NCBI GenBank assembly: GCA_035715125.1
Contig: DASTLJ010000153.1
Location: 1-48,451 of the forward strand
Length of the DNA stretch: 48,451 nt
Origin: Verrucomicrobiia bacterium
GTDB lineage: Bacteria > Verrucomicrobiota > Verrucomicrobiia > Limisphaerales > JADJPG01
Reading direction: 5' to 3'
Positions 6,755 through 30,938 of the stretch are shown here, piece by piece. Under the pieces are notes generated by a model. The model was not told where the DNA came from and made no database searches. It was given only the letters and a program-made list of their open reading frames with translations. Both the position numbers and the translations under genes were made by a program. Positions within the stretch are counted from its first letter, which is position 1; every line of letters starts with the position of its first letter.

Positions 6755-8223
6755 TGACCCCCTCCTAACACTTGCGCCGCGGTCCGCACCAGTTCGTAAA
6801 TCGGCGCGGGCAGCACCAGTCCAAGCGCGACCGCCGGCACGGCCACCAGCAGCATCGCGCCGAGCTTCCACGGGCACTCCGTGCCGCGCGCTGTGTCGGG
6901 CGCGGGCTGGCCTAGATTCAGCTTCGACATGCGCACCAGGAACCCTGCGAAAATCGCGACGATGCCCGCGACGATCAAGCCCGCCGCCCAGGGGCGGTCC
7001 GCCGCCAGCGCCGCGCTCAGGGCCGTGAACTCGCTCTGGAACAGGCTGAAGGGCGGGACGCCGGTGATGGCCACCGTGCCCATGAGAAACAGCGCGCCCG
7101 TCCACGGCAGCGTATGAATGACGCCAGTGACTTTGCGGAAATACGGCGTGCCGAAGTGCTGCTGGACGTTGCCCGCGCAAAAAAACATCAACGGCTTGGT
7201 CACACCGTGGAAAAGCATGTGCAGCACCATGCCCAGCGCGCCGAGTTTGCCGCCGAACCCCAGCGCCGCGATCATGATGCCCGACTGGTCGATGCTCGAA
7301 TAGGCGAGCAGCCGGCGGAAATTCCGTTGGGTGAGCACGAACGGCGCGGCGACCAGGATGGAAACAACGCCGAAGACCACGAGCAGGTTCCCGGCATACT
7401 CATGGCCAAGGCATTTGGCAGCCAGGGTGTAGAAACGCGCGATGCCATAAACCGCGCAGTTGATGAACCCGGCGCCCAGCAGCGCGGCCGCGGGCACGGG
7501 GGCTTCGGCGTAGGCATCGGGTTTCCAGGTGTGCATCGGCACCAGGCCGGCCTTCGTTCCGTAGCCGACGAGCACCAGCACGAACGCCAGGCGCATCGCG
7601 GCAGGCTGGCATTGGCCAGCCACCTCGATGAGCACTGACCAGTTGAAGCCGTGCGCCGCGTGCTTGCCCAGCGCTGGCAGCGCCGCAAAGTAGGTTAGGA
7701 CCGTGCCCAACAACGCCAGCGCGATGCCGGCACTGCCGATGATGATGTATTTCCACGCGGCTTCGAGGGAACTTTTCTGATTATAGAAGCGCACCAACAA
7801 GACCGACGCAAGCGTGGTGGACTCCATTGCGACCCAAAGCAGGCCCAGACTGTTTACCAGCGGCACGGCCATCATCGTGCCCACGAAGATCGGGGTGAGC
7901 ACGTAGTAGCGGTGCAGCAGAATTGCGTTGATTTTTCCCGCACGCTCTTCGCCGCGCAGATACCCGATGGCGTATCCGGCGCACGCCAGCGCGACGAACG
8001 CGATAAGGCCCACCACCAGGGCGCTGAGGGCGTCCGCGCGCAGGAAACCGCCGAAAGCTTCGACCGTGCCGCGCGCGAGGACTTGCGCTCCAAGCCCCGC
8101 CGCGAGGGCGGCAACCATGCAGAAGCCGAGCAGATTCAACCGCTCCAGCACGGCCCGCTCGCGCAGCGGCCAGCAAGCCAGGCCGGTGAGCAAAGGCACG
8201 AGGACGAGGAGCACCAAGATCAT
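6751..8223 (-). CDS. Antiporter-like subunit (HyfF/HyfD; NuoN/NuoM family)
   Basis: ORF 6751..9528 trimmed to ATG 8223, giving an ATGA overlap with the stop at 8220. It starts MILVLLVLVPLLTG. Motifs: GYGTKAGLVPMHTWKPDAYAEAP, LLAYSSIDQSG, FHGVTKPLMFFCAG. The protein is polytopic and hydrophobic. Confidence 0.85.
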   Translation of the reverse strand: MILVLLVLVPLLTGLACWPLRERAVLERLNLLGFCMVAALAAGLGAQVLARGTVEAFGGFLRADALSALVVGLIAFVALACAGYAIGYLRGEERAGKINAILLHRYYVLTPIFVGTMMAVPLVNSLGLLWVAMESTTLASVLLVRFYNQKSSLEAAWKYIIIGSAGIALALLGTVLTYFAALPALGKHAAHGFNWSVLIEVAGQCQPAAMRLAFVLVLVGYGTKAGLVPMHTWKPDAYAEAPVPAAALLGAGFINCAVYGIARFYTLAAKCLGHEYAGNLLVVFGVVSILVAAPFVLTQRNFRRLLAYSSIDQSGIMIAALGFGGKLGALGMVLHMLFHGVTKPLMFFCAGNVQQHFGTPYFRKVTGVIHTLPWTGALFLMGTVAITGVPPFSLFQSEFTALSAALAADRPWAAGLIVAGIVAIFAGFLVRMSKLNLGQPAPDTARGTECPWKLGAMLLVAVPAVALGLVLPAPIYELVRTAAQVLGGGQ

Positions 8224-9701
8224 GGCACTCCTCGAATGATGTTCGCCGCTTGCTCCATCAGTTGACGGACGGAAGCCGGCAGCCAGGCGGTGAACAAGAG
8301 CAGCGTTCCGAGCGGCAGGCTCATCGCCGCGACGTTGCTGGCTGAAATGGCCTCGCGCGGGTGTTCGCCGCCGGTCGGACCGAGCAGCACTCCGGCGAGT
8401 TTGGTCAGCACGCCGCAGAAGACAAGGATGAGGGCCGCCAACATCACCACGCTCACCCAGACGTGGTTCGACGTGAAGCCGCCGGCAAGGACCGTCAGTT
8501 CGCTCACGAACATGCCGAATGGCGGCAGGCCGCTCACGGCTGCGGCGGCCAGGGCCAGCAACAGCGCCGTCACCGGCATGGCGCGCACCAGGCCAGGGCC
8601 GATGCTGCGGAACTCGAGCGCATGAAATTGCTGGTGGATGTTGCCCGCCGCGAAGAACAGCACGGGCTTGGTCAGCGCGTGGTAACCCATGTGCAGCAGC
8701 GCGCCGAAGACGGTGAGCGGCGCGTTCATGCCAACAGCCACGCAAATCAGGCCGACGTGTTCCAGGCTGGAGTACGCCAGCATCCGCTTGAGATTCTTTT
8801 GCACGAGAATGAACGGCCCGGCCAGGAGCATTGAAAGCAATCCGAAGCCCAGGAGCAGATTGCGGCTGAAAGCGGAGTCGAGACAGGCCGTGGTGAGGAT
8901 GTGGAAGCGCAGCAGCGCATAGACGGCGATCTTCAGTGACACGCCGGAGAGCATCGCGCTGGTCGGCGACGGCGCTTCGCTGTGCGCGTCGGGCAGCCAG
9001 GTGTGCATCGGTGCCAGGCCAGCCTTGGTGCCGTAACCAATCAGTACGAAAATGAAAGCCAGCGTGATAAGGCGAGGGTCGAGCCGCGGCGCCAGCGCCA
9101 ACAGGCGCGACCAATTGAAGCTCGGCAGGGTTTCGCCGCCCGTCTTGCCGACCGCCGCGGCGTAAATGAAGATGGTGCCAAACAAGGCCAGCACCAGACC
9201 CAACCCGCCGAGCATGACGTATTTCCACGCCGCTTCGAGGGAGCTCTTGCGATTGTAGAGCGCCACCAGCAGCACCGACGAAAGCGCCGTGGCTTCCACC
9301 GCAATCCACATCACGCCGAGATTGTTCGCCAGCACGACGAGCAACATGCCCGTGGTGAACAATGGCGTAAGCACGTAAAACTCGCGGAAGCGCCTCTCGG
9401 TCACGGCCGCCTCGGCCAGCTCGCGCCGGAAGTAACGCACGGCGTAGAGCGACGTGGCCAGCGACACGACCGAGATGAGCAACACCATCCACGCGCTCAA
9501 GGCGTCGGCGCGCAGGAACTCGGCCCACTCGGTCACTGGCGCGCCGTGACTGGCCAGCACGGCTTTGAGCAACTTCACCCCGAGGACCAGGACCGTCAGG
9601 AATCCCACGATGTTGAGCCCCTCCACCAGCCCCCGTGGCCGGGCGACCAGACAGAGCAGCCCGACGACGAGGGGAGCGCAGAGGATGGAGCTTAGCAGCA
9701 T
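8220..9701 (-). CDS. Antiporter-like subunit (HyfD/HyfF; NuoM/NuoN family)
   Basis: 493-aa ORF. Motifs: GYGTKAGLAPMHTWLPDAHSEAP, MLAYSSLEHVG, YHALTKPVLFFAAGN. It is a paralogue of the downstream gene. Confidence 0.85.
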   Translation of the reverse strand: MLLSSILCAPLVVGLLCLVARPRGLVEGLNIVGFLTVLVLGVKLLKAVLASHGAPVTEWAEFLRADALSAWMVLLISVVSLATSLYAVRYFRRELAEAAVTERRFREFYVLTPLFTTGMLLVVLANNLGVMWIAVEATALSSVLLVALYNRKSSLEAAWKYVMLGGLGLVLALFGTIFIYAAAVGKTGGETLPSFNWSRLLALAPRLDPRLITLAFIFVLIGYGTKAGLAPMHTWLPDAHSEAPSPTSAMLSGVSLKIAVYALLRFHILTTACLDSAFSRNLLLGFGLLSMLLAGPFILVQKNLKRMLAYSSLEHVGLICVAVGMNAPLTVFGALLHMGYHALTKPVLFFAAGNIHQQFHALEFRSIGPGLVRAMPVTALLLALAAAAVSGLPPFGMFVSELTVLAGGFTSNHVWVSVVMLAALILVFCGVLTKLAGVLLGPTGGEHPREAISASNVAAMSLPLGTLLLFTAWLPASVRQLMEQAANIIRGVP

Positions 9702-9705
9702 GAGA

Positions 9706-10389
9706 TCACCACTTCAGTTCGTTGAGCTTGCTCACGTCCATCGAGGCGAACGTTTCGCGGATGCGAAACACGAGAATGCCGAGCACCATCACCGCAATGA
9801 CCACATCGAAGAAGATGCCGATTTCAACCACCAGCGGCATGCCATAGGAGGTCAGGACGATGGCCGCGAGCATGACGCCGTTTTCCATCGTGAGCAGCGC
9901 GAGCACCTGAGTGATGGCTTTGCGGCGGTTGATCATCAGAAAAAAGCCGGTCAGCAGCAGCGCGATGGCCACGGCGAGTGTGTTGCTGCCGAGCCGCTCC
10001 AGGGAAACGATTGGGCGAGCCACGACGTAGGCGAGCACGGTCAACGCGCCGCAGATGAGCATGGACGCAGGCGCGTTGGCAAAGGGTTGAATCTCCTGCT
10101 CGATTCTGATTTGGCGCACCAGGCGCTCCAGCCGCCACGGGAGGAAGATCACTTTGCCAGCCAGCGTGAGCACCACCACGACGTAAACGTGCCAGGCGTG
10201 GTAGGCGTAGCCGACGACACCGGCAATGGCGGCGAGCAGGAGGGATTGCATTGCGAAAATGCGGATGCTCGTGACGAGCATCGGCTGCACGGCCAGCAGG
10301 ACTTGCAGCACCAGCATCAGCGCGGCCAGCAGTGTGATGAATTGAGAGCCGGTTTCGGAGGGGGGTGGGGGCATGGTTAGAATTCGCAA
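9706..10389 (-). CDS. HyfE-like small membrane subunit (NuoK-like)
   Basis: 227-aa hydrophobic ORF of HyfE-like length, containing LALLTMENGVMLAAIVL, and sitting in the Hyf gene-order position. ATG 10374 is an alternative start. Confidence 0.75.
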   Translation of the reverse strand: MRILTMPPPPSETGSQFITLLAALMLVLQVLLAVQPMLVTSIRIFAMQSLLLAAIAGVVGYAYHAWHVYVVVVLTLAGKVIFLPWRLERLVRQIRIEQEIQPFANAPASMLICGALTVLAYVVARPIVSLERLGSNTLAVAIALLLTGFFLMINRRKAITQVLALLTMENGVMLAAIVLTSYGMPLVVEIGIFFDVVIAVMVLGILVFRIRETFASMDVSKLNELKW

Positions 10390-10466
10390 TTTGTCAGGCT
10401 GAACAATGTGGATACGGCGGCTTCGCCCGGCTTGTTTTTCGCGCGCGAGAGCTTAATGTCATCCCC

Positions 10467-10697
10467 ATGAGTTCTGCCTTGCAGGCCCAACTTCTGGAAA
10501 AGTGCGGCAAGGTGCCCGCCGAGAGAGTACGCGAAGTGCTCGACTTCGCGGAATTCCTGGCGAGCAAGTCGTCGGCGCATTCGAAAGGCAAGCGCCACCG
10601 GCCCAACCGCTCCCTGCGCGCGTACGTCGGAGGCGTGCGCCACGGCGCGCTGGCGCGGGAAATTGACCATGAGCTCTACAACGGCGCTGTTCGTTGA
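10467..10697 (+). CDS. Putative DUF2281-like type II antitoxin (orphan), antisense within the hyf-like operon gap
   Basis: Internal ATG of ORF 10365..10697. The product is MSSALQAQLLEKCGKVPAERVREVLDFAEFLASKSS... The 'P-E...VLDF.EFL' signature is typical of DUF2281 antitoxins paired with PIN toxins. Confidence 0.45.
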   Translation: MSSALQAQLLEKCGKVPAERVREVLDFAEFLASKSSAHSKGKRHRPNRSLRAYVGGVRHGALAREIDHELYNGAVR

Positions 10698-10761
10698 CAC
10701 CTGGGGCTGGGTCGTCATCGGAACAGGAAGGTTGAGACTAGCGCCAGCGTTGCCAGGATGA
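10669..10761 (+). pseudogene. Possible truncated PIN-domain toxin remnant (30 codons)
   Basis: ATG 10669 overlaps the antitoxin 3' end, as in TA operons. It encodes MSSTTALFVDTWGWVVIGTGRLRLAPALPG*. LFVDTxxW resembles a PIN N-terminal strand with its catalytic Asp. The frame stops at 10759-10761, inside the convergent hyfC-like 3' end. Confidence 0.25.
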
Positions 10762-11659
10762 ACGCGGCGCTCAGCAGGTCGGGCACGCGAAACAGCCGGA
10801 GCTTCGCGTTGGTGAACTCGACCAGCACGACCGCGCCGGCCAGCACGAGTAACTTCGCGACAAAGAAGAGCAGGCCCAGTCCAAAAGCCGCCACAGTCGG
10901 CTCCGCTGCCAAACCGACCGGGAAAAAGATGTTCGCCAGCAGCGCCATGAGGACGAGTTGCTTGATGGACGCGCCCCACTCGATGAGCGCCAGGTAGCGG
11001 CCCGAATACTCCAGCAGCATTGCCTCGTGAATCATCGTCAACTCCAGGTGCGTGGCCGGGTTGTCCACCGGGATGCGTCCGGTCTCGGCCAGCAGCACAA
11101 TGAACATCGCCGCGAAGGCCAGCGCGTGGGCGGGATCGAGGAAGGTCCAGCCGGGCCCCTGGCTGGCGAGAACGATTTGGCTGAGGTTCGTCGACCCCGC
11201 CGTGATGGCGACCGTGAAAATCGCGAGCATCATCGCCGGTTCGGCGACGGCGGCCAGAGTCATTTCGCGGCTGCTGCCCATGCCGCCGAACGGGCTGGCG
11301 GGGTCCAGTCCCCCCAAGGCCAGGAAAAATCGGCCCAGTGCCATCAAGCCGACCACGGCCAGCACGCCCCCGAACAGGCTCATCGGCGCGAGCGCGGTGA
11401 CCATCGGCACCATCAGCCCGGCCGAAAGCGCCGTGACAAACAACACATGGGGCGTCAGCGAAAAAATCCACGAGGCGTGCTCCGAGATGACCATGTCCTT
11501 GCGCAGAAATTTCGCCATGTCAAAATAAGGCTGCCAGAGGGGCGGACCGCGGCGGTTCTGGAGTTTAGCTTTCCAGTTCCTGATGAGCCCGCTGAGCAGC
11601 GGCGCCAGCAGGAGCAGGAGCGCGGCTTGAAGGAAGATGGCCAGCGGACTGAGGTTCAT
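10715..11659 (-). CDS. HyfC/HycD-like membrane subunit (NuoH family)
   Basis: ORF 10715..11992 trimmed to ATG 11659, starting MNLSPLAIFLQAALLLLLAPLLSG. Motifs: RNWKAKLQNRRGPPLWQPYFDMAKFLRK, LLAETGRIPVDNPATHLELTMIHEAMLLEYSG. Confidence 0.85.
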   Translation of the reverse strand: MNLSPLAIFLQAALLLLLAPLLSGLIRNWKAKLQNRRGPPLWQPYFDMAKFLRKDMVISEHASWIFSLTPHVLFVTALSAGLMVPMVTALAPMSLFGGVLAVVGLMALGRFFLALGGLDPASPFGGMGSSREMTLAAVAEPAMMLAIFTVAITAGSTNLSQIVLASQGPGWTFLDPAHALAFAAMFIVLLAETGRIPVDNPATHLELTMIHEAMLLEYSGRYLALIEWGASIKQLVLMALLANIFFPVGLAAEPTVAAFGLGLLFFVAKLLVLAGAVVLVEFTNAKLRLFRVPDLLSAAFILATLALVSTFLFR

Positions 11660-11676
11660 GGCAGGAACTTCGGCGG

Positions 11677-11757
11677 ATTGGAGTGATGGAGTGATGGAGT
11701 GCTGGGGGCGACCGCGCGTCGGAGTTTCCCAGCACTCCAGCACCCCATTACCCCATT
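11677..11757. repeat. Heptamer-built hairpin (GGAGTGA-type) inside the operon
   Basis: GGAGTGATGGAGTGATGGAGTGCTGGG - 21 nt - CCCAGCACTCCAGCACCCCATTACCCCATT. The core stem GGAGTGCTGGG/CCCAGCACTCC is perfect. It lies between the hyfB-like stop (11775) and the hyfC-like start (11659). Confidence 0.8.
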
Positions 11758-11774
11758 CTTCCCGGTAAGCGTGG

Positions 11775-13823
11775 TCATAGCGCGAAAAGCAGCAGCAACA
11801 GCAGCGTGATGAAGATGTAGAGCAGGTAGGCGTGGATGCTGCCCGCCTGGAGGGCGCGGATGTGGCGCGAGCCCCGCAGAATCCAAATCCGCAGCGGCCG
11901 GTAAATGCGCCGCTCGAACACCTCTTCGACGCGGCTCTCGAATCGGAGGGAGGTCGCGAAGTAAGGCGAGAAGTCGTATTCGCGTTGCACATCGCGGTGG
12001 GGGCGGAACAGGGCCTTGAAGATCATGCGAATGGGTTTCGAGAAACCGGTCGCCGTGTATTCCATTTGGGGTGTCAGGCCGCGCTGGCCGCAGTCCCACG
12101 TCGGGCCGCGCCGCGTCCTGGCGTTACGCGCAAAGACCAGCCAGAGCGCGAAGGGAATCAGGAGAAAACTCAGGCCCATGAACAGGATGCCCAGCGTCGA
12201 AAGCGTCCCGGCGTTCGCGCCTGGCGCAGCCAGGACGAAGCCGCCCGCAACGATGAGTTGCTCGCTGAGTTGTCGACCCGTGAGCTGTTGCGTCAGCGGG
12301 TCCATCAGCCTGACGAACGTGGTCGGAAACAATCCAAGCGCGACGCACGCGGCCGTAAGGACCGCCATGCCGAAGAGCATCGCAGGCGACGCTTCATGCG
12401 CTTGCCCGGCGCGTTCGCTGCGGGGCTGGGCCAGGAAAGTGATGCCGAAGGCCTTGACGAAGCACGCCGCGGCCAGCGCGCCGGTCAACGCCAACATCGC
12501 GCCGCTGAGCGGGAAAATGAGGCGCACAAGACTTTCCGTCGTGCCGAACCCTTGGAGCAACGCTTGATAGGTGAGCCACTCGCTGACAAACCCGTTGAGT
12601 GGCGGCAGCGCGGAAATGGCCACCGCGCCCACGAGGAAGTAAAAAGCCGTCTGCGGCATTCGTTTGACCAGGCCGCCCAGGGCCTCCATGTTGCGCGTGC
12701 CGGTGGCGTGCAGCACCGCGCCCGCGCCGAGGAACAGCAACCCTTTGAACACCGCATGGTTTACGGTGTGATAGAGGCCGGCAATCAGCGCCAGCGACGC
12801 CAGCAGGGGGTGGCCCGAGTGGAGGAACATCAATGCCGCGCCCAGGCCGATGAGGATGATGCCGATGTTCTCGATGCTGTGATAAGCCAGCAGGCGCTTG
12901 AGGTCATGCTCCATCAGCGCGTAGAGCACGCCGAGCACGGCCGAGACTGTCCCAAGGACCAGCACGGTCACGCCCCACCAAAGTGGCGGCGGGCCCAGGA
13001 ATTCGAAGCAGACGCGGGTCAGCCCGTAGATGCCGCTCTTGATGAGCACGCCGGACATGAGCGCCGAGACGTTGCTGGGCGCGACCGGATGCGCGGCCGG
13101 AAGCCAGATGTGCAACGGCACGATGCCGGCCTTGATGCCGAAACCGAGCAGGAACAGGACGAACGCCGCGTTGCGTTTGCCGGGCGACATCTTCGCGCCG
13201 AGATCGTGCAGGCTGTCGAAACCGTAGTCGCCCGAAGCCTGGAAAAGCAGAAGGAAGCCAAGGATGACGCACCCGGCGTCGATGTGCGACATGATGAAGT
13301 AGAGGACACCCGCGTCACGTGTCTCCGGCTTCTCGTGCTCGAAACTCACCAGACAATACGCCGTCAGCGCTATGATTTCCCACGCGATGAGGAACAGCCA
13401 GATGTTGTCCGCCACGAAGACGAGCGTCGTGGCGAGCAGCAACGCGTTGAAGAAGGCCCCGAGCAAGCCGACGTTTTTGCGGCCAAAGAACCCCTTCGCG
13501 TAGCCGAGCGAGTAGGCCGACAGCGCGAAGCCCAGCAGGGAGACGATGAGCAGAAAGAACGCGCCCAGCGCGTCGAGCCGCACGCTGAATTTGATGTAGG
13601 GAATGAGGGCCGGCAGCAGCTCGAATTGCGGAGCCGTAGCGCCCGTTCCTCGGGCGAGATGAAGAATGGCTGCAACCAGGCCGCACAACGCGGCGAGCGA
13701 GCCCGCGCCGAACGAGCAGACGTTAGCCACCTTCTCGCGGCGCACAAACACCAGGCCGGCCACAGAGCCGAGGAGATAGCCGCAGAGCGACGAGATGAGC
13801 AAGGTGGCGGGTTGGAGGTTCAT
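11775..13823 (-). CDS. HyfB-like antiporter-type subunit (NuoL/MrpA family)
   Basis: 682-aa ORF. Motifs: GIKAGIVPLHIWLPAAHPVAPSNVSALMSGVLIK, LLAYHSIENIG, NHAVFKGLLFLGAGAV. Its length is close to that of E. coli HyfB. Confidence 0.9.
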   Translation of the reverse strand: MNLQPATLLISSLCGYLLGSVAGLVFVRREKVANVCSFGAGSLAALCGLVAAILHLARGTGATAPQFELLPALIPYIKFSVRLDALGAFFLLIVSLLGFALSAYSLGYAKGFFGRKNVGLLGAFFNALLLATTLVFVADNIWLFLIAWEIIALTAYCLVSFEHEKPETRDAGVLYFIMSHIDAGCVILGFLLLFQASGDYGFDSLHDLGAKMSPGKRNAAFVLFLLGFGIKAGIVPLHIWLPAAHPVAPSNVSALMSGVLIKSGIYGLTRVCFEFLGPPPLWWGVTVLVLGTVSAVLGVLYALMEHDLKRLLAYHSIENIGIILIGLGAALMFLHSGHPLLASLALIAGLYHTVNHAVFKGLLFLGAGAVLHATGTRNMEALGGLVKRMPQTAFYFLVGAVAISALPPLNGFVSEWLTYQALLQGFGTTESLVRLIFPLSGAMLALTGALAAACFVKAFGITFLAQPRSERAGQAHEASPAMLFGMAVLTAACVALGLFPTTFVRLMDPLTQQLTGRQLSEQLIVAGGFVLAAPGANAGTLSTLGILFMGLSFLLIPFALWLVFARNARTRRGPTWDCGQRGLTPQMEYTATGFSKPIRMIFKALFRPHRDVQREYDFSPYFATSLRFESRVEEVFERRIYRPLRIWILRGSRHIRALQAGSIHAYLLYIFITLLLLLLFAL

Positions 13824-18947: not shown

Positions 18948-19694
18948 TTACCGGCAATAGCACGGTTCCGTGCGGACGCGGAAATAACGCATCGGGGCCG
19001 CGCCGAGGGAGTTGGTCACCACGACGTCGATGGGCCCAAGTTTGGCGACATAACTGGAATTTGTCTGCCAGTTTGGTGTCGTCAGGGAATCGGAATACTC
19101 GACCGTGTAAACGTAGAGCTGCTGGCCCGTGAAGTGAAAGCGCATCGAGCCGACGACCCGCTCGATGCGGTCAATCACGACCGGGTTAAGGACGAGGGCG
19201 GCGACCACGTTCGTGTGCATGAACTGGTTGGGAACGTCCGCGCCAGACACCAGTGCGGTCGCGACGCCATTGATGCTCAAGGCTCCCGCCTGATCCCGGA
19301 CGGTGTAGTTCCACTCGGCCAGCCCGGGCGACGGCGCGGGAGATCCCTCGCCAAACTGGATGTAATTGGAAAAGACAATCCCGTTGTTGAAGCTGAATGC
19401 GAAGGTCTCTTCGGGAAACCACGGGTAACTGGTGAAAACCGTCCGCAGGTCCGGACTGAGAAACGTCAGCCGGGCGGTGTGGCCGCCGGGATCCACGATC
19501 AATCCGACGAATCCCAGTCTCTCGTCGGGCAGTTCATAGCTGAAGGTATTCGCGGCGATCCCGCAACATTCCGAGTAAAGGCCCGAAGTGATTTCGTAGT
19601 ACCCGCTCTTGAACGTGCTCTGCGCCTGCGCCGGCCGAAGCCCCAGAGTGAGGGCCGAGAGCGTCGCCAACCCAATCAATGTTCGTTCCAACAT
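18948..19694 (-). CDS. Secreted hypothetical protein with C-terminal ..RYFRV module
   Basis: ORF 18948..19883 trimmed to ATG 19694 (MLERTLIGLATLSALTLGLRPAQAQ, a signal peptide). The C-terminus is MRFHFTGQQLYVYTVEYSDSLTTPNWQT...PMRYFRVRT. Confidence 0.65.
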   Translation of the reverse strand: MLERTLIGLATLSALTLGLRPAQAQSTFKSGYYEITSGLYSECCGIAANTFSYELPDERLGFVGLIVDPGGHTARLTFLSPDLRTVFTSYPWFPEETFAFSFNNGIVFSNYIQFGEGSPAPSPGLAEWNYTVRDQAGALSINGVATALVSGADVPNQFMHTNVVAALVLNPVVIDRIERVVGSMRFHFTGQQLYVYTVEYSDSLTTPNWQTNSSYVAKLGPIDVVVTNSLGAAPMRYFRVRTEPCYCR

Positions 19695-19934
19695 AGCTGC
19701 CTCCGATGCATGGATGCCGCCTGGGGCGGCACCCAGGATTATTGTTGAAATACGCCTGTAAAGTTGAACGCCTCGCCGCGAATTGCAAGTCCGAAGGCCG
19801 ATAAATTTGGGAGCAGGGCGCATGATAAGAATCTTCGGACAATGCGTTTTGCTCGGATTTTGCATCAGGCAGTATCTAGCCAACGCATATACGTGTCCTT
19901 CGGCCCAATTTCGCGCAGTCGGTCAAGGATGGCG

Positions 19935-23953: not shown

Positions 23954-24062
23954 TGCCAGATGCTGCATCGCTGGACGCCGCGCCGCGAGGATTTCTTCAC
24001 GAGCTGAAGTCCTCCCGAGAACATTCTTGCCTGAGACGCACCGATCCGGAGAGCATGACGCC

Positions 24063-24284
24063 ATGAAATTCCTCCTCGGCATGGCGGCGTGCGGATTGCT
24101 GTCTTTGCTGGCAAGCGGCTGCGCGACGGTCGGCCCCGAGCAGCAGCGGCTGGTCTCCAAGCCGAACATGCAGTTCTCACAGGGCGCCGTATTCAGCTAC
24201 TCGTCAAAGCTCATGCCGCAAGTGCAGCCGGGATTGGCGACGACCGGTGGAGCGCAGCCCAGCACATGCACTCTTTGCCGATGA
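24063..24284 (+). CDS. DUF4266-like lipoprotein ending in CxxC
   Basis: Internal ATG of ORF 23934..24284. The product is MKFLLGMAACGLLSLLASGCATVGPEQQRLVSKPNMQF...GGAQPSTCTLCR. It has a lipobox (LASGC) and the GCATV-P-E..L...MQF pattern of DUF4266. Confidence 0.7.
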   Translation: MKFLLGMAACGLLSLLASGCATVGPEQQRLVSKPNMQFSQGAVFSYSSKLMPQVQPGLATTGGAQPSTCTLCR

Positions 24285-24291
24285 CGGGCGC

Positions 24292-25962
24292 ATGAGTTTC
24301 ACGAAGTTCCTGGGACTTTGGGCGCCGGCCGTGATCGTGCTGCTGGCGCCCGCCCCCCCGTCCATGGCGGCCGACTTGGCGCCGCCGTTCGATCTGACCC
24401 GGCACGGGGCCGAAGGACGGGTACGATTGGAGGATTTCGCCGGGCAGATCGTCGTGCTGGACTTCTTTGCGTATTGGTGCGCGCCTTGCGAGCGGGCGTC
24501 CCGGGAACTGGAAGTGGGCGTGCGGCAGTATTACGCGGAGCGCAACGGCAACGCCCGCGGAGTGCCGGTGCGGGTGCTGTCCGTGAACATCGAGAAGGCA
24601 TTGCCGGAACGCACGGCGGCCTTCGTGCGACACTCCGGGGCGAGTTTGGTGGTGGATGATTTCGATGGGACGTTGTTGAAGCAGTTTGGGGCCGCGGGCA
24701 TTCCATTCCTGGTGGTGGTGGACGGCAGCGGCTTGAGACCGAACGCGCCGCAATTCAAGGTGGCTTACCAGCACGCCGGATTTGAAGGCACGCCGAATTT
24801 GCGCAGGGTGATTGACAGTCTCGGGAGCGGGGAGGAACGAGCCACGCCAGCCGCCGCGCCAGCGAGTGTCGCCCCGGCGGAGATCACCGTGGAGGCCGAC
24901 ACGGAATTCGCGTTGGCGTCGGACCTTTTCCTGACGGACAGCGGCGTCAAGTTCAGCCGGCGCACTGGCGGCACGGAGTGGGACGGGTCGGTGCGCTACG
25001 CCTCGTTCTGCGAAGACTACCGGCCGAATCCGATCGTGGATGGATTGGGTCACGCGGAGCGGCTGAACGAAGACCGCTTCAGCGGGCTGGTAAACTTGCG
25101 CCAACGCGTGGCCGAACCGCTGCAAGTCCTCGCCTCGGCCAGCGCCTACGACGGTTACCCGGACTATCGCCGCGTGTGGATTGCCAACCGGTATCGTCAG
25201 AAGTACGACGATCCCCGGTTCCCGCGCATCGCAGACTACGAAGAGCCGGACCCCAAGGGATACGGCGGGGCGGCCGGGCTGCGGTGGGAATACTTGTCGA
25301 CGGTGGCCTTCGCGGAATTGCGCCTGGGCTACCGGCACGAACAAACGGCGCCGGGCTACATCGACGTGCTCTTCACGAACTCGGTCGGTGAATTGGACGC
25401 CAAGGCCCTCCGCGGGCGCGAGCAGCTCGACAGCTACTCGGTTTCGTTTTCCTCGGAAAACGTGCTGACGCCGCGCGTGCGCGCGCTCAACGAGTTCACC
25501 CTTACCAAAACCACCGATCGCGAACTGCGCTTCGCCTACCAAGGCTCGATCAACGTGGCGTTGGGCGAACACTGGGTGGCGCGCGGCTACGGCGGCGTGA
25601 GCAAGGAAGCGCCGGGCTTCGATGCTCATTTTTTCGGCCTCACGCTGGAATACGAGGTGTTGCCCAACCTCGCGTTCCTGGTAACCGGCCGTTATTACAA
25701 GGACACGGGCGAGATCGAAAACTCGCTGGCCCTGATCAGCGACCAGGGGCCGCTGAGCGTGAGCAGCGCCGCGCCGCCGCTGACCAGTTGGGAAGCCAGC
25801 GCGGGCGTGCGTTGGTCCGTGGGCCGGTCCACCTTCCGGCTCCACGGCGGGCCGTTCTGGACGGACTACCAGCCCCGGCGCGGTTTCGGCCGCGAATTCA
25901 TTTACCTCTATGCGGATCGGAATTGGGGCCTTGCGCAGTTGACCTGGTCGGTGCAATTTTAG
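24292..25962 (+). CDS. TlpA/ResA-like thioredoxin domain fused to a beta-barrel-like (DUF3570-like?) outer-membrane domain
   Basis: ATG 24292 gives MSFTKFLGLWAPAVIVLLAPAPPSMA, a signal peptide. Redox motif: VVLDFFAYWCAPCERAS. The C-terminal ~380 aa has an alternating beta-strand pattern and ends ..GLAQLTWSVQF with a terminal aromatic residue. Confidence 0.8.
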   Translation: MSFTKFLGLWAPAVIVLLAPAPPSMAADLAPPFDLTRHGAEGRVRLEDFAGQIVVLDFFAYWCAPCERASRELEVGVRQYYAERNGNARGVPVRVLSVNIEKALPERTAAFVRHSGASLVVDDFDGTLLKQFGAAGIPFLVVVDGSGLRPNAPQFKVAYQHAGFEGTPNLRRVIDSLGSGEERATPAAAPASVAPAEITVEADTEFALASDLFLTDSGVKFSRRTGGTEWDGSVRYASFCEDYRPNPIVDGLGHAERLNEDRFSGLVNLRQRVAEPLQVLASASAYDGYPDYRRVWIANRYRQKYDDPRFPRIADYEEPDPKGYGGAAGLRWEYLSTVAFAELRLGYRHEQTAPGYIDVLFTNSVGELDAKALRGREQLDSYSVSFSSENVLTPRVRALNEFTLTKTTDRELRFAYQGSINVALGEHWVARGYGGVSKEAPGFDAHFFGLTLEYEVLPNLAFLVTGRYYKDTGEIENSLALISDQGPLSVSSAAPPLTSWEASAGVRWSVGRSTFRLHGGPFWTDYQPRRGFGREFIYLYADRNWGLAQLTWSVQF

Positions 25963-25974
25963 CAGCGTTACCTT

Positions 25975-26835
25975 ATGAAGTTTTCCACTCTTGTACCTTG
26001 CCTGGGTCTGCTCCCTTTCGCTTGCGCCGTGCTGCTGTCTGGCTCGGCGTCGGCGCAGCAGGGCGCCTATCGCATCGGCGACGTCGTTACGAACTTCTCC
26101 CTGCCAAACCGCTACCTCTGGACCAACGACAATGGCCAGATTTTTACTCCTGGCAACACGAGCTGGCGCCTGAGCGATTTCGCCGGCAAGATTGTGTTCT
26201 TCGACGTCTTCGCCTTCTGGTGACCGAATTGCCAATCGGCCATCGGTCAGATGGCCACCGGAATCCGCGATTACTACGCCGCCCGCAATGGCAACTCCAA
26301 TGGCATTCCCGTCGTGCACGTCGTCATCGACATCGCCGGCGCCACCTACGTGGGGCAAACTGACGCTTACCTGCCGCCGCGCGGGGTGCGCATTTGCGGC
26401 AACGACTGGTCGCGAACGCTGCGCAACACCTTCGCCCCGACGGGCGGCACCAACGGCCCGGACCCGCGCCCGGTGTACATCATCATCAACGGCGTCTCCA
26501 ACTCCGCCAGCCACGCCCAGTGGCAACTGCTCGAACTGCACATCGAGCCGGGAGGCGGCGCGGAGGATTACACGGCGCGCATCGCCGCGTGGCGAAACAT
26601 CATCGATTCTGTCCAAGCCCCGCCGCCGCGCCTGACGAACGTGGCACTGAACGCCGGAACGTTTCAATTCACATTCCCCGGCCAGCGCGGGCGGACGAAC
26701 CGGGTTGAATGCACGACGAACTTCGTGGACTGGACGACCGTCACGAATGCTTTCGGCACCAACGCGCCCATCACCTTCCGCGACACAAACGCGGCGGTGA
26801 ATCCGCAACGGGTTTACCGGGTGCGGCGGCTATAG
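25975..26835 (+). CDS. Candidate selenoprotein: TlpA-like thioredoxin with a U-P-N-C motif (in-frame TGA at 26221-26223) plus a C-terminal ..RVYRV module
   Basis: ORFs 25975..26223 and 26251..26835 are in the same frame, and the only stop between them is the TGA. Alignment with the upstream paralogue: DFAGKIVFFDVFAFW[TGA]PNCQSAIGQMATGIRDYYAARNGNSNGIP versus DFAGQIVVLDFFAYWCAPCERASRELEVGVRQYYAERNGNARGVP. Signal peptide: MKFSTLVPCLGLLPFACAVLLSGSASA. Confidence 0.6.
26238..26256 (+). promoter_or_regulatory. Candidate bacterial SECIS apical hairpin
   Basis: GGCCATC-GGTCA-GATGGCC: a perfect 7-bp stem and a 5-nt loop starting GGU, with the loop 22-24 nt after the TGA. The E. coli fdhF SECIS has a GGUC apical loop at a comparable distance. 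Confidence 0.5.
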
Positions 26836-28567: not shown

Positions 28568-30938
28568 TCATTCGTTCGTGATCGCGCGGAAGAAGCGGGA
28601 GTTGGGGTTGGTGAGGCCGTAGTTCGTGTACCAGTAGGAAACGTAATTCGTGTGAATCGGGTACCAATTGGTTGGGCTGGCAAGATTCGTCGAGGTTTCT
28701 ATCCTGTAGGCGCGATTGGTCAGTCCGTAGAGATGGAAGTAAAAGCTGTTGCTGGTGTAGCTCAACAGGCTCAGACGCGCGGCAGAATTGCCGTGCACGA
28801 AGAGACTCGCGACGGAGCTTGTGGCAAACCCGGTCGCGTTAGAGGCGACGACCCAGTAGCTCCCCGCATTAGTCCCCGCAACGTTGCTCAGCGTGTAGGT
28901 CGCTGAGTTTGCGCCGGCGATGGAGTTTGTCGGATCGGAGGCGTTCGTGCCGCGGAATTTCCAGAAGTAAGCGAGGGTCGGGATGGCGAGGGACTTGAAT
29001 AGAGCGTCCTCCCCGACGACGACATTCGTGCCTTCGGGGTGTTGCACGAACATGGGTGCGGCGGCCTGTTCCCAGTGCAACGTGAACCCAATGCACGCCA
29101 CGTTCAGGCCGGAAACGGCGACCTGATAGGTCGTGCCAGAACTGGCGCTGAAAGAGACTGCGGGCGCACTGCCTGAGGCGTTCGTTTTGAGGGTGAGATT
29201 GCTCACATTCGTGCCGGTGTAGACGGATAGAATCAGCGGAAAGCTACTGCTTCCGCCCGTGGTGTCAAACGTGACGTCTCCGCTGGCTGGGGCGACCCAG
29301 CGATACCAAACCGACGGCGTGTTTGTGCCGGAACCGTGCAGCGGTTCCCCTGTCTCCATCGTGGCCCGGATGACAGTCCCGTTGGTCGTGCCCGACGAGT
29401 TGCTGATCGCGAAAGCGTTTGTGAAGGAATCGTTGGCGGGCACGGGCAGTGCAATCTTTCCCCACCAGGTGCCCCAACGGCTGCCAGGCGCACGAGCGTA
29501 CTCTTGTAGGGTCCAAAAGTCAGTGTCGTTGGCGGGGTCAACCACAGTGGAACTGTAGTCGCCCCATCGGTTCCGCAGTTGAGAATCGGCACGTAGGAAG
29601 TTGGCTTCTCCGGCTTTCAGAACCGTGTCGCTCCGTACGGTAAGCGGCGAATCACAGTAATCGCGAAACGAATAATTGCCGCTGATCCATTGGATCGACG
29701 AGAAGCGCGAATAGCCGATCAGCACGTCGTTGAACCGGTTTACTGCGATGCTGGGATAAGCAAAAGACGTGTCGTCAGTGAGTTTCTCAATTCTGCTGAT
29801 CGGTTGCGCGATGAAGTTTCGCAAAGGGATCTGCCACCACTGCACGATTGTTCGTTCGAGGTCGACAGCGGGGCCATAGGGAAGAAAGATGTGATGCGCG
29901 CACCAGAGAAAACCATTCCGCTGGATCACGGGTGATGAGATCCGATCATCAGCCGCAAATACCCTCGTATATGAGCCGTTTGTTATGGCCTGAAACAGAA
30001 AATTGACGTTGCCATCGTTCCGCACCCAAGCCATATTCGTTGCAACTGCCGGGAAATTCGTCGTTCGCCACCAACTGTTCACCGCCGATTTGGCCCGTCA
30101 AGGCATAGACCCGCAACGCGTTGGTGTTCCACGTTGTCAACAGGTGCATGTTGGTAACCGTGTCGTCGTAAACCAGGCTCGGCGCCAGCGCGAACGCCTT
30201 CGGAGCGTTGGTCTCCGCCCTCAGAATTGTGGGGGCATTCGTCCCCCCCGCGTAAAAGTTGGTCTTGTTGAACACCCAGAGCCGCACGAAGTGGAAATCA
30301 GACTCCGCGCTACTGCCTGTGAGGTACATGTTCGCGGTGACCACGATCCAATTCTTGTTGAAGCCTACCATCGGGAAGTCACCCCAGCGCGTGTGGTTCG
30401 TATCGGCATCGAGCTTCCTTTGATACCAAGTGCCCGTGGGATCACTGGTCTGCGAAACAGCCACGAGCAGCGAGGCATCGCTCAGCTTCTGATTCCCTGC
30501 CGCAGTGGCAATCCACCTTCCTGCATACGGATCATAAACAATTCGCGGATCAAAAGGCTTGGTTGCAGAGAATCCCCACCAGTTCGAGAGCGTCGTCGTC
30601 AAGTTCGTCCCGCCCTGTCTATCTTGGATACGAACGAGCGAGTTGAGCATCGTCACGACATTGCTGGGTCCGACGGCCCCTTGTGTGTCTGGTGGGACAC
30701 CGGCCGGGGCCCCATCGTCCGCAATCGCCAGAAAGTTCGTTGCCGTGGCAGGTGACGGAGGAGGTTCACTGGCGGGAATAAAGGGCGGCCTTCCAATGGC
30801 GAAGCGCAAGACTGCATCCTCCGGGAAAGCGTTGGTTGTCGGTCCGGCCCCGAATGGAATTTCTTCATCATCAGCACGGCAGGGTGCGGAGAAAGACAAC
30901 AACCCCAAGAAGGACATCAGGAGCGCGAGTTTTTTCAT
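28568..30938 (-). pseudogene. Frameshifted secreted beta-propeller-like protein (ORFs 29949..30938 and 28568..30082)
   Basis: The upstream ORF has a signal peptide (MKKLALLMSFLGLLSFSAPCRA) but no C-terminal module. The downstream ORF has no signal peptide but carries WGDYSSTVVDPANDTDFWTLQEYA, a GEPLH..WYRWVAP domain and a C-terminal ..SRFFRAI module. The two frames differ by 1 nt and overlap by 134 nt. Confidence 0.6.

What the first reader, a model, noticed from the sequence alone, without database searches (positions are those of the whole stretch)
24063..26835. Three-gene envelope thiol/selenol redox operon: CxxC lipoprotein, thioredoxin::beta-barrel fusion, Sec-thioredoxin
The three genes are separated by only 7 and 12 nt. 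The first is a 73-aa DUF4266-like lipoprotein that ends ..STCTLCR, so it carries a C-terminal CxxC. The second has a signal peptide, a TlpA-like WCAPC thioredoxin domain and a ~380-aa domain with beta-barrel character and a terminal Phe. DUF3570 is the usual neighbour of DUF4266, so that family is expected here. The third is the UxxC paralogue. The DUF4266/DUF3570/TlpA neighbourhood is conserved in several phyla but has no assigned function. The covalent fusion of the thioredoxin to the putative barrel and the duplicated Sec-containing thioredoxin appear unusual. Together they suggest a redox relay operating at or across the outer membrane, with the small lipoprotein as partner or substrate.
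Basis: partly seen in the sequence, partly recalled or inferred. Interest (0 to 1): 0.75.

Follow-up and report, generated by a model that had tools for sequence, protein, structure and literature searches.

The report
Outer-membrane thioredoxin-barrel selenoprotein cassette
A three-gene unit conserved across Verrucomicrobiota encodes a tiny lipoprotein ending in two cysteines, an outer-membrane barrel with a thioredoxin fused to it, and a second thioredoxin that uses selenocysteine; it looks like a flavin-free cousin of a little-studied envelope electron-transfer system and probably carries reducing power to the outer membrane.

Summary
Three tightly spaced + strand genes are present. The first is a 73-aa lipoprotein ending CTLCR. 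The second is a 556-aa signal peptide–TlpA-like thioredoxin (WCAPC)–~18-strand beta-barrel fusion ending in Phe. The third is a thioredoxin paralogue with an in-frame UGA (W-U-P-N-C) followed by a textbook bacterial SECIS hairpin.

The lipoprotein–barrel pair is conserved in at least 138 Verrucomicrobiota species. The thioredoxin can be fused, encoded as a separate overlapping gene, or placed downstream. The second thioredoxin has UGA in 14 loci and Cys in 56.

Neither the lipoprotein nor the barrel passes the Pfam DUF4266 or DUF3570 models. Profile-profile comparison, with reversed and shuffled controls, still links both to those families. The two FMN-attachment motifs of DUF3570 and its ApbE partner are absent.

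My reading is a flavin-free, thiol/selenol-only variant of the DUF4266–DUF3570–thioredoxin–ApbE extracytosolic electron-transfer cassette (eLife 2021). The fusion and Sec are lineage variants rather than rarities. The composition and the family relationship rest on computed results. The direction of electron flow, the substrate and any passage across the outer membrane are inferred. This is a new variant of a known but functionally open kind, of moderate interest.

The parts
23969..24062 (.). Intergenic region between the divergently transcribed PSCyt2/PSD1 gene and g1. The cassette promoter is presumed to lie here.
   Evidence: Gene calls for the same contig. No consensus sigma-70 site was found.
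24063..24284 (+). g1: 73-aa lipoprotein precursor. Lipobox Cys20; mature peptide of 53 aa; conserved QRLVSKPNMxF motif; Gly-rich arm; C-terminal C69-x-x-C72 followed by one residue.
   Evidence: invariant C20, G57, C69, C72 in 43 sequences. No Pfam or NCBIfam hit. Remote DUF4266 similarity.
24292..24369 (+). g2 signal peptide (aa 1-26, ...PPSMA/AD).
   Evidence: Read from the sequence. The AF2 N-terminal helix has low confidence.
24373..24822 (+). g2 TlpA/ResA-like thioredoxin domain (aa ~28-177). The active site W-C63-A-P-C66 is at 24475-24489.
   Evidence: Pfam Thioredoxin_8 scores 33.8 bits (cut-off 27) and AhpC-TSA 30.9 bits (cut-off 26). NCBIfam TlpA/ResA. PDB relatives 3kcm, 1jfu (TlpA), 1st9 (ResA). 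C63 is TGC/TGT in 72 of 72 loci.
24823..24876 (+). Low-complexity Ala/Pro linker between the thioredoxin domain and the barrel.
   Evidence: AF2 pLDDT below 50 at aa 181-192.
24877..25962 (+). g2 beta-barrel domain (aa 196-556). About 18 strands, one conserved Arg-rich helix (aa 292-305, DYRRVWIANRYRQ), terminal Phe.
   Evidence: AF2 pLDDT above 90. Foldseek hits to OmpG/FadL/Occ, E down to 8e-10. Terminal F in 108 of 126 relatives. hhalign against DUF3570 gives Prob 91-93%.
25975..26835 (+). g3: 286-aa secreted thioredoxin-like selenoprotein. Signal peptide aa 1-27; thioredoxin-like region aa ~34-200; C-terminal ~77-aa domain.
   Evidence: Homologues read through the same position.
26221..26232 (+). 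U-P-N-C redox motif. TGA 26221-26223 is read as selenocysteine.
   Evidence: This position is TGA in 14 loci and TGC/TGT in 56.
26238..26256 (+). Bacterial SECIS hairpin: stem GGCCAUC/GAUGGCC (7 bp), loop GGUCA, 21 nt between the UGA and the loop.
   Evidence: It fits the bSECIS rules quoted in PMC13188914.
26602..26832 (+). g3 C-terminal ~77-aa domain (...RVYRVRRL). It recurs at the C-termini of other secreted proteins of this organism.
   Evidence: An HMM of this domain also hits the C-termini of ORFs 18948-19883(-) and 28568-30082(-). No Pfam or NCBIfam model matches it.

Best explanation
This is a self-contained envelope redox cassette of Verrucomicrobiota.

Its core is a small outer-membrane lipoprotein (g1) with a flexible Gly-rich C-terminal arm ending in CxxC. 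The next gene encodes an ~18-strand outer-membrane barrel. One or two TlpA-like thioredoxins always accompany this pair. In this window one thioredoxin is fused to the periplasmic N-terminus of the barrel (g2). The other is a secreted paralogue (g3) with selenocysteine as its attacking residue.

The cassette is a divergent, flavin-free relative of the DUF4266–DUF3570–thioredoxin–ApbE system. The two FMN attachment sites and ApbE are gone, so redox chemistry can only run through thiols and a selenol.

Proposed mechanism (inferred):
1. An inner-membrane thiol transporter of the CcdA/DsbD type, encoded elsewhere, reduces the thioredoxin modules.
2. The barrel-tethered thioredoxin and/or the Sec-thioredoxin keep the terminal CxxC of the lipoprotein reduced.
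3. The conserved N-terminal motif of the lipoprotein docks it in or on the barrel.
4. The reduced dithiol arm acts on a substrate at the outer membrane or beyond it.

Shown by computation: gene structure, domains, barrel fold, synteny, Sec recoding, remote homology, and loss of the flavin sites. Inferred: localisation, direction of electron flow, electron source and substrate.
For: Anatomy:
- ORFs and spacing.
- The thioredoxin domain scores above the Pfam cut-offs.
- AF2 barrel with pLDDT above 90 and Foldseek matches to OMP barrels.
- Terminal Phe in 108 of 126 relatives.

Synteny:
- g1 lies upstream in all loci that have upstream sequence.
- A thioredoxin is downstream in 66 of 80 genome loci (70 of 84 with the four earlier loci).
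- Flanking genes differ between loci.
- Thioredoxin and barrel occur fused (window), as separate genes overlapping by 4 nt (L053), or as barrel then thioredoxin (L082).
- Among the representatives, 50 are fused and 76 unfused.

Selenocysteine:
- 14 loci have TGA and 56 have Cys codons at the same column.
- A hairpin with a GGUC(A)/CGUGA loop sits 21-23 nt after the UGA. It passes a strict filter in 9 of 14 TGA loci against 3 of 55 Cys loci (Fisher p 6e-6).
- Compensatory A-U to G-C changes keep the stem paired while changing both encoded amino acids.

Relationship to the DUF4266/DUF3570 system:
- hhalign for the mature lipoprotein gives Prob 79%, E 1.6e-5; controls stay below 1%.
- hhalign for the barrel gives Prob 91-93% and is collinear over 248-324 columns. 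The reversed control gives 1.3% and 15-column shuffles at most 6%.
- The gene order is the same as in true DUF4266-DUF3570 loci.
- The mature peptide length is the same (53 vs 52 aa).

Loss of flavin:
- [ST]GA[ST] occurs in 10 of 234 barrels, at scattered positions. In DUF3570, 113 of 117 proteins carry two motifs.
- No ApbE was found in the window or in 84 loci.

Published basis: DUF3570 is flavinylated by ApbE, the cluster is DsbD-linked, and the DUF4266 Cys motif 'may undergo redox cycling' (PMC8238504).
Against: - No interaction, localisation or redox measurement exists. AlphaFold-multimer could not be run.
- Neither g1 nor the barrel passes the curated family models.
- A small-profile hhalign of the barrel against DUF3570 was negative (Prob 4.5%), so the homology depends on profile depth.
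- Beta-barrels are prone to spurious profile matches. Shuffles in 30-column blocks reached Prob 47% locally and 81% globally.
- g1 has CxxC, not the CxC of DUF4266.
- No CcdA/DsbD gene lies within 10 kb of the cassette or recurs near the cassette in other loci.
- The barrel has no conserved Cys, so its own role is unknown.
- Sec machinery could not be checked, because only one 48-kb contig is available.
Confidence: 0.5

Rival explanations
1. Metal handling, for example copper. The terminal CxxC of the lipoprotein would be a metal-binding site of the MerP/CopZ type. The TlpA-like thioredoxins would keep it reduced, as TlpA does for ScoI and CoxB (my own knowledge). The barrel would be the outer-membrane channel for the metal.
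For: The thioredoxin domains are closest to TlpA/ResA/DsbE, and a weak SCO1/SenC hit appears in the L053 thioredoxin (E 0.014). The barrel has many invariant Asp/Glu/Arg/Tyr/Trp residues. The eLife paper notes VIT1 iron transporters in 25 DUF3570 clusters.
Against: Interchange of Sec and Cys is typical of catalytic redox residues, not of metal ligands. No metal transporter, chaperone or regulator recurs next to the cassette. No His/Met-rich tracts are present.
Confidence: 0.15
2. Carrier-arm chemistry. The Gly-rich C-terminal arm with terminal cysteines would carry a covalently bound sulfur or selenium species (persulfide, polysulfide or selenotrisulfide), in the way the GGCGG arm of SoxY does (my own knowledge). 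The thioredoxins, including the Sec form, would load or reductively release the bound species at the barrel.
For: Both g1 (…SGGAQAAGCTSCR) and DUF4266 (…GVGGGGCGCN) end in a Gly-rich segment with Cys at the extreme C-terminus. The conserved Arg-rich helix and lumen residues of the barrel could suit an anionic substrate. A selenol is a strong nucleophile towards S-S and S-Se bonds.
Against: This is purely an analogy. There is no homology to SoxY and no sulfur-oxidation or selenium-metabolism genes nearby.
Confidence: 0.1
3. The similarity to DUF4266/DUF3570 is convergent. On this reading the cassette is an unrelated outer-membrane protein with a lipoprotein partner, for example a surface-lipoprotein export or plug pair, and the thioredoxin only guards the cysteines during assembly.
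For: The Pfam models fail. The small-profile hhalign was negative. A profile search of 1.84 billion representatives found only 241 relatives and did not run into the large DUF3570 family. The Foldseek hits are generic barrels for both models.
Against: Two independent partners each give profile-profile signals far above the reversed and shuffled controls, in the same gene order and with a thioredoxin attached. The barrel alignment is collinear over almost the full length.
Confidence: 0.15
4. The TGA in g3 is a true stop. On this reading g3 is a broken gene or two small genes, as in the public annotation.
For: The public record calls an 82-aa and a 194-aa hypothetical protein. No tRNA-Sec or sel genes lie on this contig. 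The fold energy of the region is not unusual (z -0.8).
Against: TGA sits at the catalytic Cys column in 14 species-level loci from three sequence subgroups, with the frame and sequence conserved on both sides. The SECIS-type hairpin is specific to the TGA loci. TlpA-like UxxC selenoproteins are an established family.
Confidence: 0.03

Closest known systems
DUF4266–DUF3570–thioredoxin–ApbE (often DsbD-linked) flavinylation cluster (Méheust et al., eLife 2021, PMC8238504)
   Same: A small lipoprotein of the same mature length, with a KPxMxF-type N-terminal motif, a Gly-rich arm and a terminal Cys pair, is followed by a ~360-400-aa beta-barrel gene and accompanied by a TlpA-like thioredoxin. Both partners give profile-profile matches.
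   Different: There is no ApbE. The two [ST]GA[ST] FMN sites are missing. The Cys pair is CxxC rather than CxC. The barrel carries an extra conserved Arg-rich helix. The thioredoxin is often fused to the barrel, and a second thioredoxin paralogue, sometimes with Sec, is present. The cassette fails both Pfam models and is restricted to Verrucomicrobiota.
TlpA/ResA/CcmG(DsbE) periplasmic thiol-disulfide oxidoreductases
   Same: Thioredoxin fold with a WCxxC motif, export by a signal peptide, and a reductant role in an oxidising compartment. The closest solved relatives are 3kcm, 3gl3, 1jfu and 1st9.
   Different: The known proteins are anchored in the inner membrane or are soluble, and they act in cytochrome maturation. 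Here the domain is covalently tied to an outer-membrane barrel. Both copies share an insert (YYAxRNGNxxGxPV) after the active-site helix.
'Thiol-disulfide isomerase-like protein' UxxC selenoproteins (TlpA-like, cd02966/PF13905; Sargasso Sea selenoproteome)
   Same: A TlpA-like fold with Sec replacing the N-terminal Cys of CxxC, and a coding-region bSECIS.
   Different: The g3 family scores below the Pfam cut-off. It carries an extra C-terminal domain and sits in a fixed cassette with a barrel and a lipoprotein. It matches no NCBIfam selenoprotein model.
Porin–cytochrome conduits (MtrCAB), a functional analogy only
   Same: An outer-membrane barrel encloses or docks a redox-active partner protein to move electrons to the cell surface (my own knowledge; MtrB appears among the Foldseek hits of DUF3570).
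   Different: There are no haems. The carrier would be a dithiol arm, and there is no evidence yet that anything crosses the membrane.

Membership tests
DUF4266 (PF14086) | Scores against the Pfam model | tested here: not met
   No hit at E<=1 for g1. The precomputed Pfam field is empty for homologues.
DUF4266 (PF14086) | ~70-aa lipoprotein with a ~52-aa mature peptide | tested here: met
   Lipobox Cys20. The mature length is 53 aa (mode), against 52 aa in DUF4266.
DUF4266 (PF14086) | Invariant C-terminal GGGGCGCN (CxC) | tested here: not met
   g1 and its homologues end GC[TS][SA]C[RKQ], that is CxxC plus one residue.
DUF4266 (PF14086) | Detectable homology at profile level | tested here: inconclusive
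   Mature-only comparison gives Prob 78-79%, E 1.6e-5, with controls below 1%. With the signal peptide included it gives 97%.
DUF3570 (PF12094) | Scores against the Pfam model | tested here: not met
   No hit at E<=1 for g2 or for the unfused barrels of L053 and L082.
DUF3570 (PF12094) | ~400-aa all-beta barrel ending in an aromatic residue, encoded directly after the small lipoprotein gene | tested here: met
   AF2 models of both proteins have about 18-20 strands. Gene order.
DUF3570 (PF12094) | Two [S/T]GA[S/T] flavinylation motifs | tested here: not met
   10 of 234 barrels have any such motif, at scattered positions. In DUF3570, 113 of 117 have two. The aligned positions read FDFLGFxExLxEDR instead of VMSGATIDDxR.
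DUF3570 (PF12094) | Neighbouring ApbE flavin transferase | tested here: not met
   tblastn with two ApbE proteins found nothing at E below 0.9 in the window or in 84 loci. No ApbE within 10 kb of the cassette.
DUF3570 (PF12094) | Detectable homology at profile level | tested here: met
   Large profiles give Prob 90.8-93.2%, E 1.2e-6 to 4.4e-8, and are collinear. The reversed control gives 1.3% and 15-column shuffles at most 6%. Caveat: small profiles gave 4.5%.
TlpA-like thioredoxin (PF13905/PF00578) | Above the curated score, with WCxxC and an export signal | tested here: met
   g2 scores 33.8 bits against a cut-off of 27, and 30.9 against 26. g3 scores only 20.3 against 26, but is a clear paralogue of the g2 domain (E 3e-22).
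Bacterial selenoprotein | In-frame UGA aligned with Cys in homologues | tested here: met
   14 TGA against 56 TGC/TGT at the same column.
Bacterial selenoprotein | bSECIS: 4-16-bp stem, 3-9-nt loop with G in its first two positions, 16-37 nt after the UGA | tested here: met
   7-bp stem, loop GGUCA, 21-nt spacing. The rules are from PMC13188914. The hairpin is enriched in the TGA loci, p 6e-6.
Bacterial selenoprotein | selA/selB/selC/selD present in the genome | not testable with these tools
   Only this 48-kb contig is available. It holds no tRNA and no sel genes among the ORFs that were scanned or that carry precomputed Pfam annotation; not every ORF in the window was scanned.
Outer-membrane beta-barrel protein | Signal peptide, closed antiparallel barrel, C-terminal aromatic beta-signal | tested here: met
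   Insertion in the membrane itself was not tested.

The most novel reading that the evidence does not exclude
The cassette could be a haem-free and flavin-free 'porin–thiol' conduit. The dithiol arm of the lipoprotein would thread the barrel. The barrel-tethered thioredoxin would reduce it on the periplasmic side. On the cell surface it would hand electrons to the Sec-thioredoxin, whose C-terminal domain looks like a lineage-specific sorting tag, or directly to an external substrate. That would be electron transfer across an outer membrane by thiol/selenol-disulfide exchange alone.
Probability: 0.12. Interest if true: 0.85.

Novelty: new variant of a known kind. Interest (0 to 1): 0.55.

Why it matters
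DUF3570-type barrels are the only proposed outer-membrane components of the widespread ApbE/flavin extracytosolic redox systems, and their function is open. A phylum-wide variant has dropped the flavins and instead ties a thioredoxin to the barrel, in some species adding a selenocysteine paralogue. This suggests that the conserved job belongs to the lipoprotein–barrel pair and that the redox input is interchangeable. It gives a simple, testable system, with Cys and Sec point mutants and no cofactor, for asking what these barrels do and whether reducing power can be delivered to or through an outer membrane without haem. It also adds an unannotated selenoprotein family: g3 is split into two hypothetical proteins in the public record. 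Finally, it shows that the current Pfam models miss a whole branch of both families.

Tried and rejected
- Direct Pfam and NCBIfam scans of g1, of the barrel and of unfused barrels found no DUF4266 or DUF3570 hit.
- The first hhalign of the barrel against DUF3570 used 14- and 26-sequence profiles and was negative (Prob 4.5%, out of register). Only profiles of 234 and 117 sequences gave a collinear match, so I ran reversed, block-shuffled and circularly permuted controls.
- The SGAS motif in the g2 thioredoxin domain (24634-24645) looked like an ApbE flavinylation site. I rejected this because only 16 of 50 homologues keep [ST]GA[ST] there.
- ApbE and DUF3570 tblastn against the window and all loci found nothing.
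- SECIS by energy alone does not work. The region is not unusually stable (z -0.8), and mean hairpin energies do not separate TGA loci from Cys loci (-8.2 vs -7.0 kcal/mol). What separates them is the position and the loop sequence.
- Rfam and tRNA scans of the window were empty.
- The promoter and terminator scan was uninformative.
- Clustering of flanking ORFs found no recurrent CcdA/DsbD, ApbE or metal genes.
- A literature search for Verrucomicrobia selenoproteins gave nothing specific.
- The genome scan used peptide patterns taken from the thioredoxin domain, so its ratio of fused to unfused loci is biased. The unbiased profile search was used for that ratio instead.
- AlphaFold-multimer and pairwise model superposition were not available.


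Full report
**What is there**

The window is a complete 48,451-bp MAG contig labelled Verrucomicrobiae bacterium. Three + strand ORFs sit at the stated coordinates, 7 and 12 nt apart.

- g1 (24063-24284) encodes 73 aa with a lipobox (LLASGC). Its mature peptide of 53 aa ends STCTLCR.
- g2 (24292-25962) encodes 556 aa. It has a signal peptide and a thioredoxin domain with WCAPC that passes the Pfam cut-offs for Thioredoxin_8 and AhpC-TSA. The closest solved relatives of that domain are TlpA, ResA and DsbE. An Ala/Pro linker follows, and then a 360-aa C-terminal domain ending SVQF.
- g3 (25975-26835) has a signal peptide, a thioredoxin-like region and an in-frame TGA at 26221-26223, giving F-W-U-P-N-C.

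The upstream neighbour is a divergently transcribed PSCyt2/PSD1 gene, and the downstream neighbour is convergent. No ApbE or DsbD/CcdA gene lies within 10 kb of the cassette.

**The barrel**

An AlphaFold2 model built on 50 homologues has mean pLDDT 83.5. Residues 196-555 form about 18 long antiparallel strands, mostly with pLDDT above 90, plus one conserved helix (aa 292-305). Foldseek against the PDB returns only outer-membrane barrels such as OmpG, FadL and OprD/Occ, with E down to 8e-10. The terminal residue is Phe in 108 of 126 full-length relatives. This is the usual outer-membrane beta-signal (my own knowledge). By the normal topology of such barrels, the N-terminal thioredoxin should face the periplasm (inference).

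**Conservation**

g2 has more than 272 homologue clusters at 40-88% identity, almost all from Verrucomicrobiota. A scan of one genome per GTDB species found relatives in 138 species, covering Limisphaerales/Pedosphaera, Verrucomicrobiales, Opitutales, Akkermansiaceae and Puniceicoccaceae. A profile of the barrel alone, searched against 1.84 billion representatives, found only 241 proteins, so the family is discrete. Of the best 150 representatives, 50 are thioredoxin fusions and 76 are barrels without a thioredoxin.

In the fetched loci a g1 homologue lies immediately upstream of the barrel gene wherever upstream DNA exists. The lipobox Cys, one Gly and both C-terminal Cys are invariant, and the motif QRLVSKPNMxFSDS is conserved. 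Flanking genes differ from locus to locus, so the cassette is self-contained.

The thioredoxin takes several arrangements:
- fused to the barrel, as in the window;
- a separate gene overlapping the barrel gene by 4 nt (L053);
- encoded after the barrel (L082);
- absent downstream, in a marine subgroup whose only thioredoxin is the fused one.

The fusion is thus one arrangement among several and not a rarity.

**Selenocysteine**

g3 is a paralogue of the g2 thioredoxin domain (33% identity, E 3e-22). Both share an insert after the active-site helix. At the column of the g3 TGA, 14 loci have TGA and 56 have TGC or TGT. The reading frame and sequence are conserved on both sides.

A hairpin with stem GGCCAUC/GAUGGCC and loop GGUCA lies at 26238-26256, with 21 nt between the UGA and the loop. 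This fits the published bacterial SECIS rules: a 4-16-bp stem, a 3-9-nt loop with G in its first two positions, and 16-37-nt spacing (PMC13188914). Equivalent hairpins with GGUC(A) or CGUGA loops at the same distance occur in the other TGA loci. The stems differ by compensatory changes that also alter the encoded amino acids. Under a strict filter, 9 of 14 TGA loci and 3 of 55 Cys loci pass (p 6e-6). One of the three Cys loci that pass (L044) belongs to a TGA subgroup and may be a recent Sec-to-Cys conversion.

Hairpin energy alone does not discriminate. The catalytic Cys of g2 itself is never TGA (72 of 72 loci). TlpA-like UxxC selenoproteins are an established family, so g3 is a new member of a known kind. 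The public record splits it into two hypothetical proteins. Sec machinery could not be checked on a single contig.

**Relationship to DUF4266 and DUF3570**

Neither g1 nor the barrel matches any Pfam or NCBIfam model at E<=1. I retrieved real DUF4266 proteins with a consensus-like query written from memory; the hits were validated by their precomputed PF14086 annotation. Their genomic contexts read thioredoxin–DUF4266–DUF3570–ApbE.

- Lipoprotein. Profile-profile comparison of the mature peptides gives Prob 78-79%, E 1.6e-5. Reversed and column-shuffled controls stay below 1%. Including the signal peptide raises the figure to 97%, which is inflated.
- Barrel. Small profiles gave nothing (Prob 4.5%). 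Profiles of 234 barrel domains and 117 DUF3570 proteins give Prob 90.8-93.2%, E 1.2e-6 to 4.4e-8, and the match is collinear over 248-324 columns. A reversed template gives 1.3%, and 15-column block shuffles give at most 6%.

Several further points agree: both partners match independently, the gene order is the same, the mature lipoprotein length is the same (53 vs 52 aa), and a thioredoxin is attached in both systems. I therefore regard the cassette as a divergent branch of the DUF4266/DUF3570 system, while noting that barrels are prone to spurious profile matches.

The differences are instructive:
- DUF3570 carries two [S/T]GA[S/T] motifs that ApbE flavinylates (PMC8238504). In my set 113 of 117 DUF3570 proteins have two. 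Only 10 of 234 Verrucomicrobial barrels have any, at scattered positions.
- The aligned positions read FDFLGFxExLxEDR in place of VMSGATIDDxR.
- No ApbE was found in the window or in 84 loci.
- g1 ends CxxC plus one residue, where DUF4266 ends CGCN.
- The barrel has an extra conserved Arg-rich helix.

**How it most likely works**

The conserved unit is the lipoprotein plus the barrel, always with at least one TlpA-like thioredoxin. With the flavin sites gone, the only redox-active groups are the thioredoxin CxxC, the UxxC/CxxC of the paralogue, and the terminal CxxC of the lipoprotein. The barrel has no conserved Cys.

The most economical reading is a thiol/selenol relay. An inner-membrane CcdA/DsbD-type transporter, encoded elsewhere, would reduce the thioredoxins, as proposed for the DUF3570 clusters. 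The thioredoxins would keep the dithiol arm of the lipoprotein reduced. The arm, held at or in the barrel by the conserved N-terminal motif, would act on a substrate at the outer membrane. Everything after 'the only redox-active groups' is inference.

Rival readings are metal handling, a SoxY-like carrier arm for sulfur or selenium species, convergence rather than homology, and a true stop in g3. Each is listed with its evidence in the rival-explanation entries.

The family guesses are right in spirit, but they fail the curated models and one or more defining features each (CxC; FMN motifs; ApbE). The neighbourhood is not function-less in the literature. The fusion and the Sec form are common within the phylum. 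The proposed relay is plausible but untested.

This is a new variant of a known, poorly understood kind. Its interest is moderate. It offers a cofactor-free entry point to the function of DUF3570-type barrels, and it leaves open, with low probability, a thiol-based conduit across the outer membrane.

Noticed in passing
window 26602-26832; also the C-termini of ORFs 18948-19883(-) and 28568-30082(-): The last ~77 aa of g3 (…RVYRVRRL) form a domain that recurs at the extreme C-terminus of at least two other secreted-looking proteins on this contig and of many g3 homologues. No Pfam or NCBIfam model covers it. It may be a lineage-specific sorting or anchoring tag. In L082 the equivalent thioredoxin instead carries an ASH/HYDIN-type Ig-like domain.
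   Followed up: partly
window 24634-24645 (g2 aa 115-118, SGAS): The thioredoxin domain of g2 contains a perfect [S/T]GA[S/T] ApbE-type flavinylation motif. Only 16 of 50 homologues keep it (TGAE, TGIS and others), so it is probably a coincidence.
   Followed up: yes
L049, L052, L059, L063, L073 (upstream of g1); L009, L012, L016 (downstream of the second thioredoxin): In several of the 80 loci an ECF sigma factor (Sigma70_r2/r4_2) directly abuts the cassette on the same strand, in most of them together with a DUF3379-like putative anti-sigma gene. This hints at envelope-stress control. No such pair lies near the cassette in this window.
   Followed up: partly
window 25975-26223 and 26251-26835: The public annotation splits the selenoprotein gene into two 'hypothetical proteins' (VFT34_05335 and VFT34_05340; HEU0009223.1 and HEU0009224.1). 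The same split into 86 and 177 aa is seen in L001.
   Followed up: yes
L044 6818-6860: A Cys-form (TGC) homologue keeps a perfect SECIS-like hairpin (CUCAGC-GGUC-GCUGAG) at the same distance as its TGA-form relatives L030, L034, L041 and L046. This suggests a recent Sec-to-Cys replacement.
   Followed up: partly
L008, L014, L016, L055 (titled Bifidobacterium/Bifidobacteriaceae); L010, L057 (Akkermansia muciniphila); L011 (Methylomirabilota): Contigs carrying this Verrucomicrobiota-specific cassette are filed under unrelated or implausible organism names. This probably reflects mislabelled or contaminated MAG bins.
   Followed up: no
window 5159-13823 (-): A run of complex I/Mrp-type genes lies here. 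It includes a fused 30-kDa/49-kDa (NuoC/NuoD-like) subunit, two Proton_antipo_M proteins and a NuoK-like protein. It is unrelated to the finding.
   Followed up: no
g2 aa 292-320 (window 25165-25251): The barrel carries a nearly invariant Arg-rich helix and loop (DYRRVWIANRYRQ…PxYEEPDP) with no counterpart in DUF3570. It may be a plug or a binding element, and its role is unexplained.
   Followed up: no
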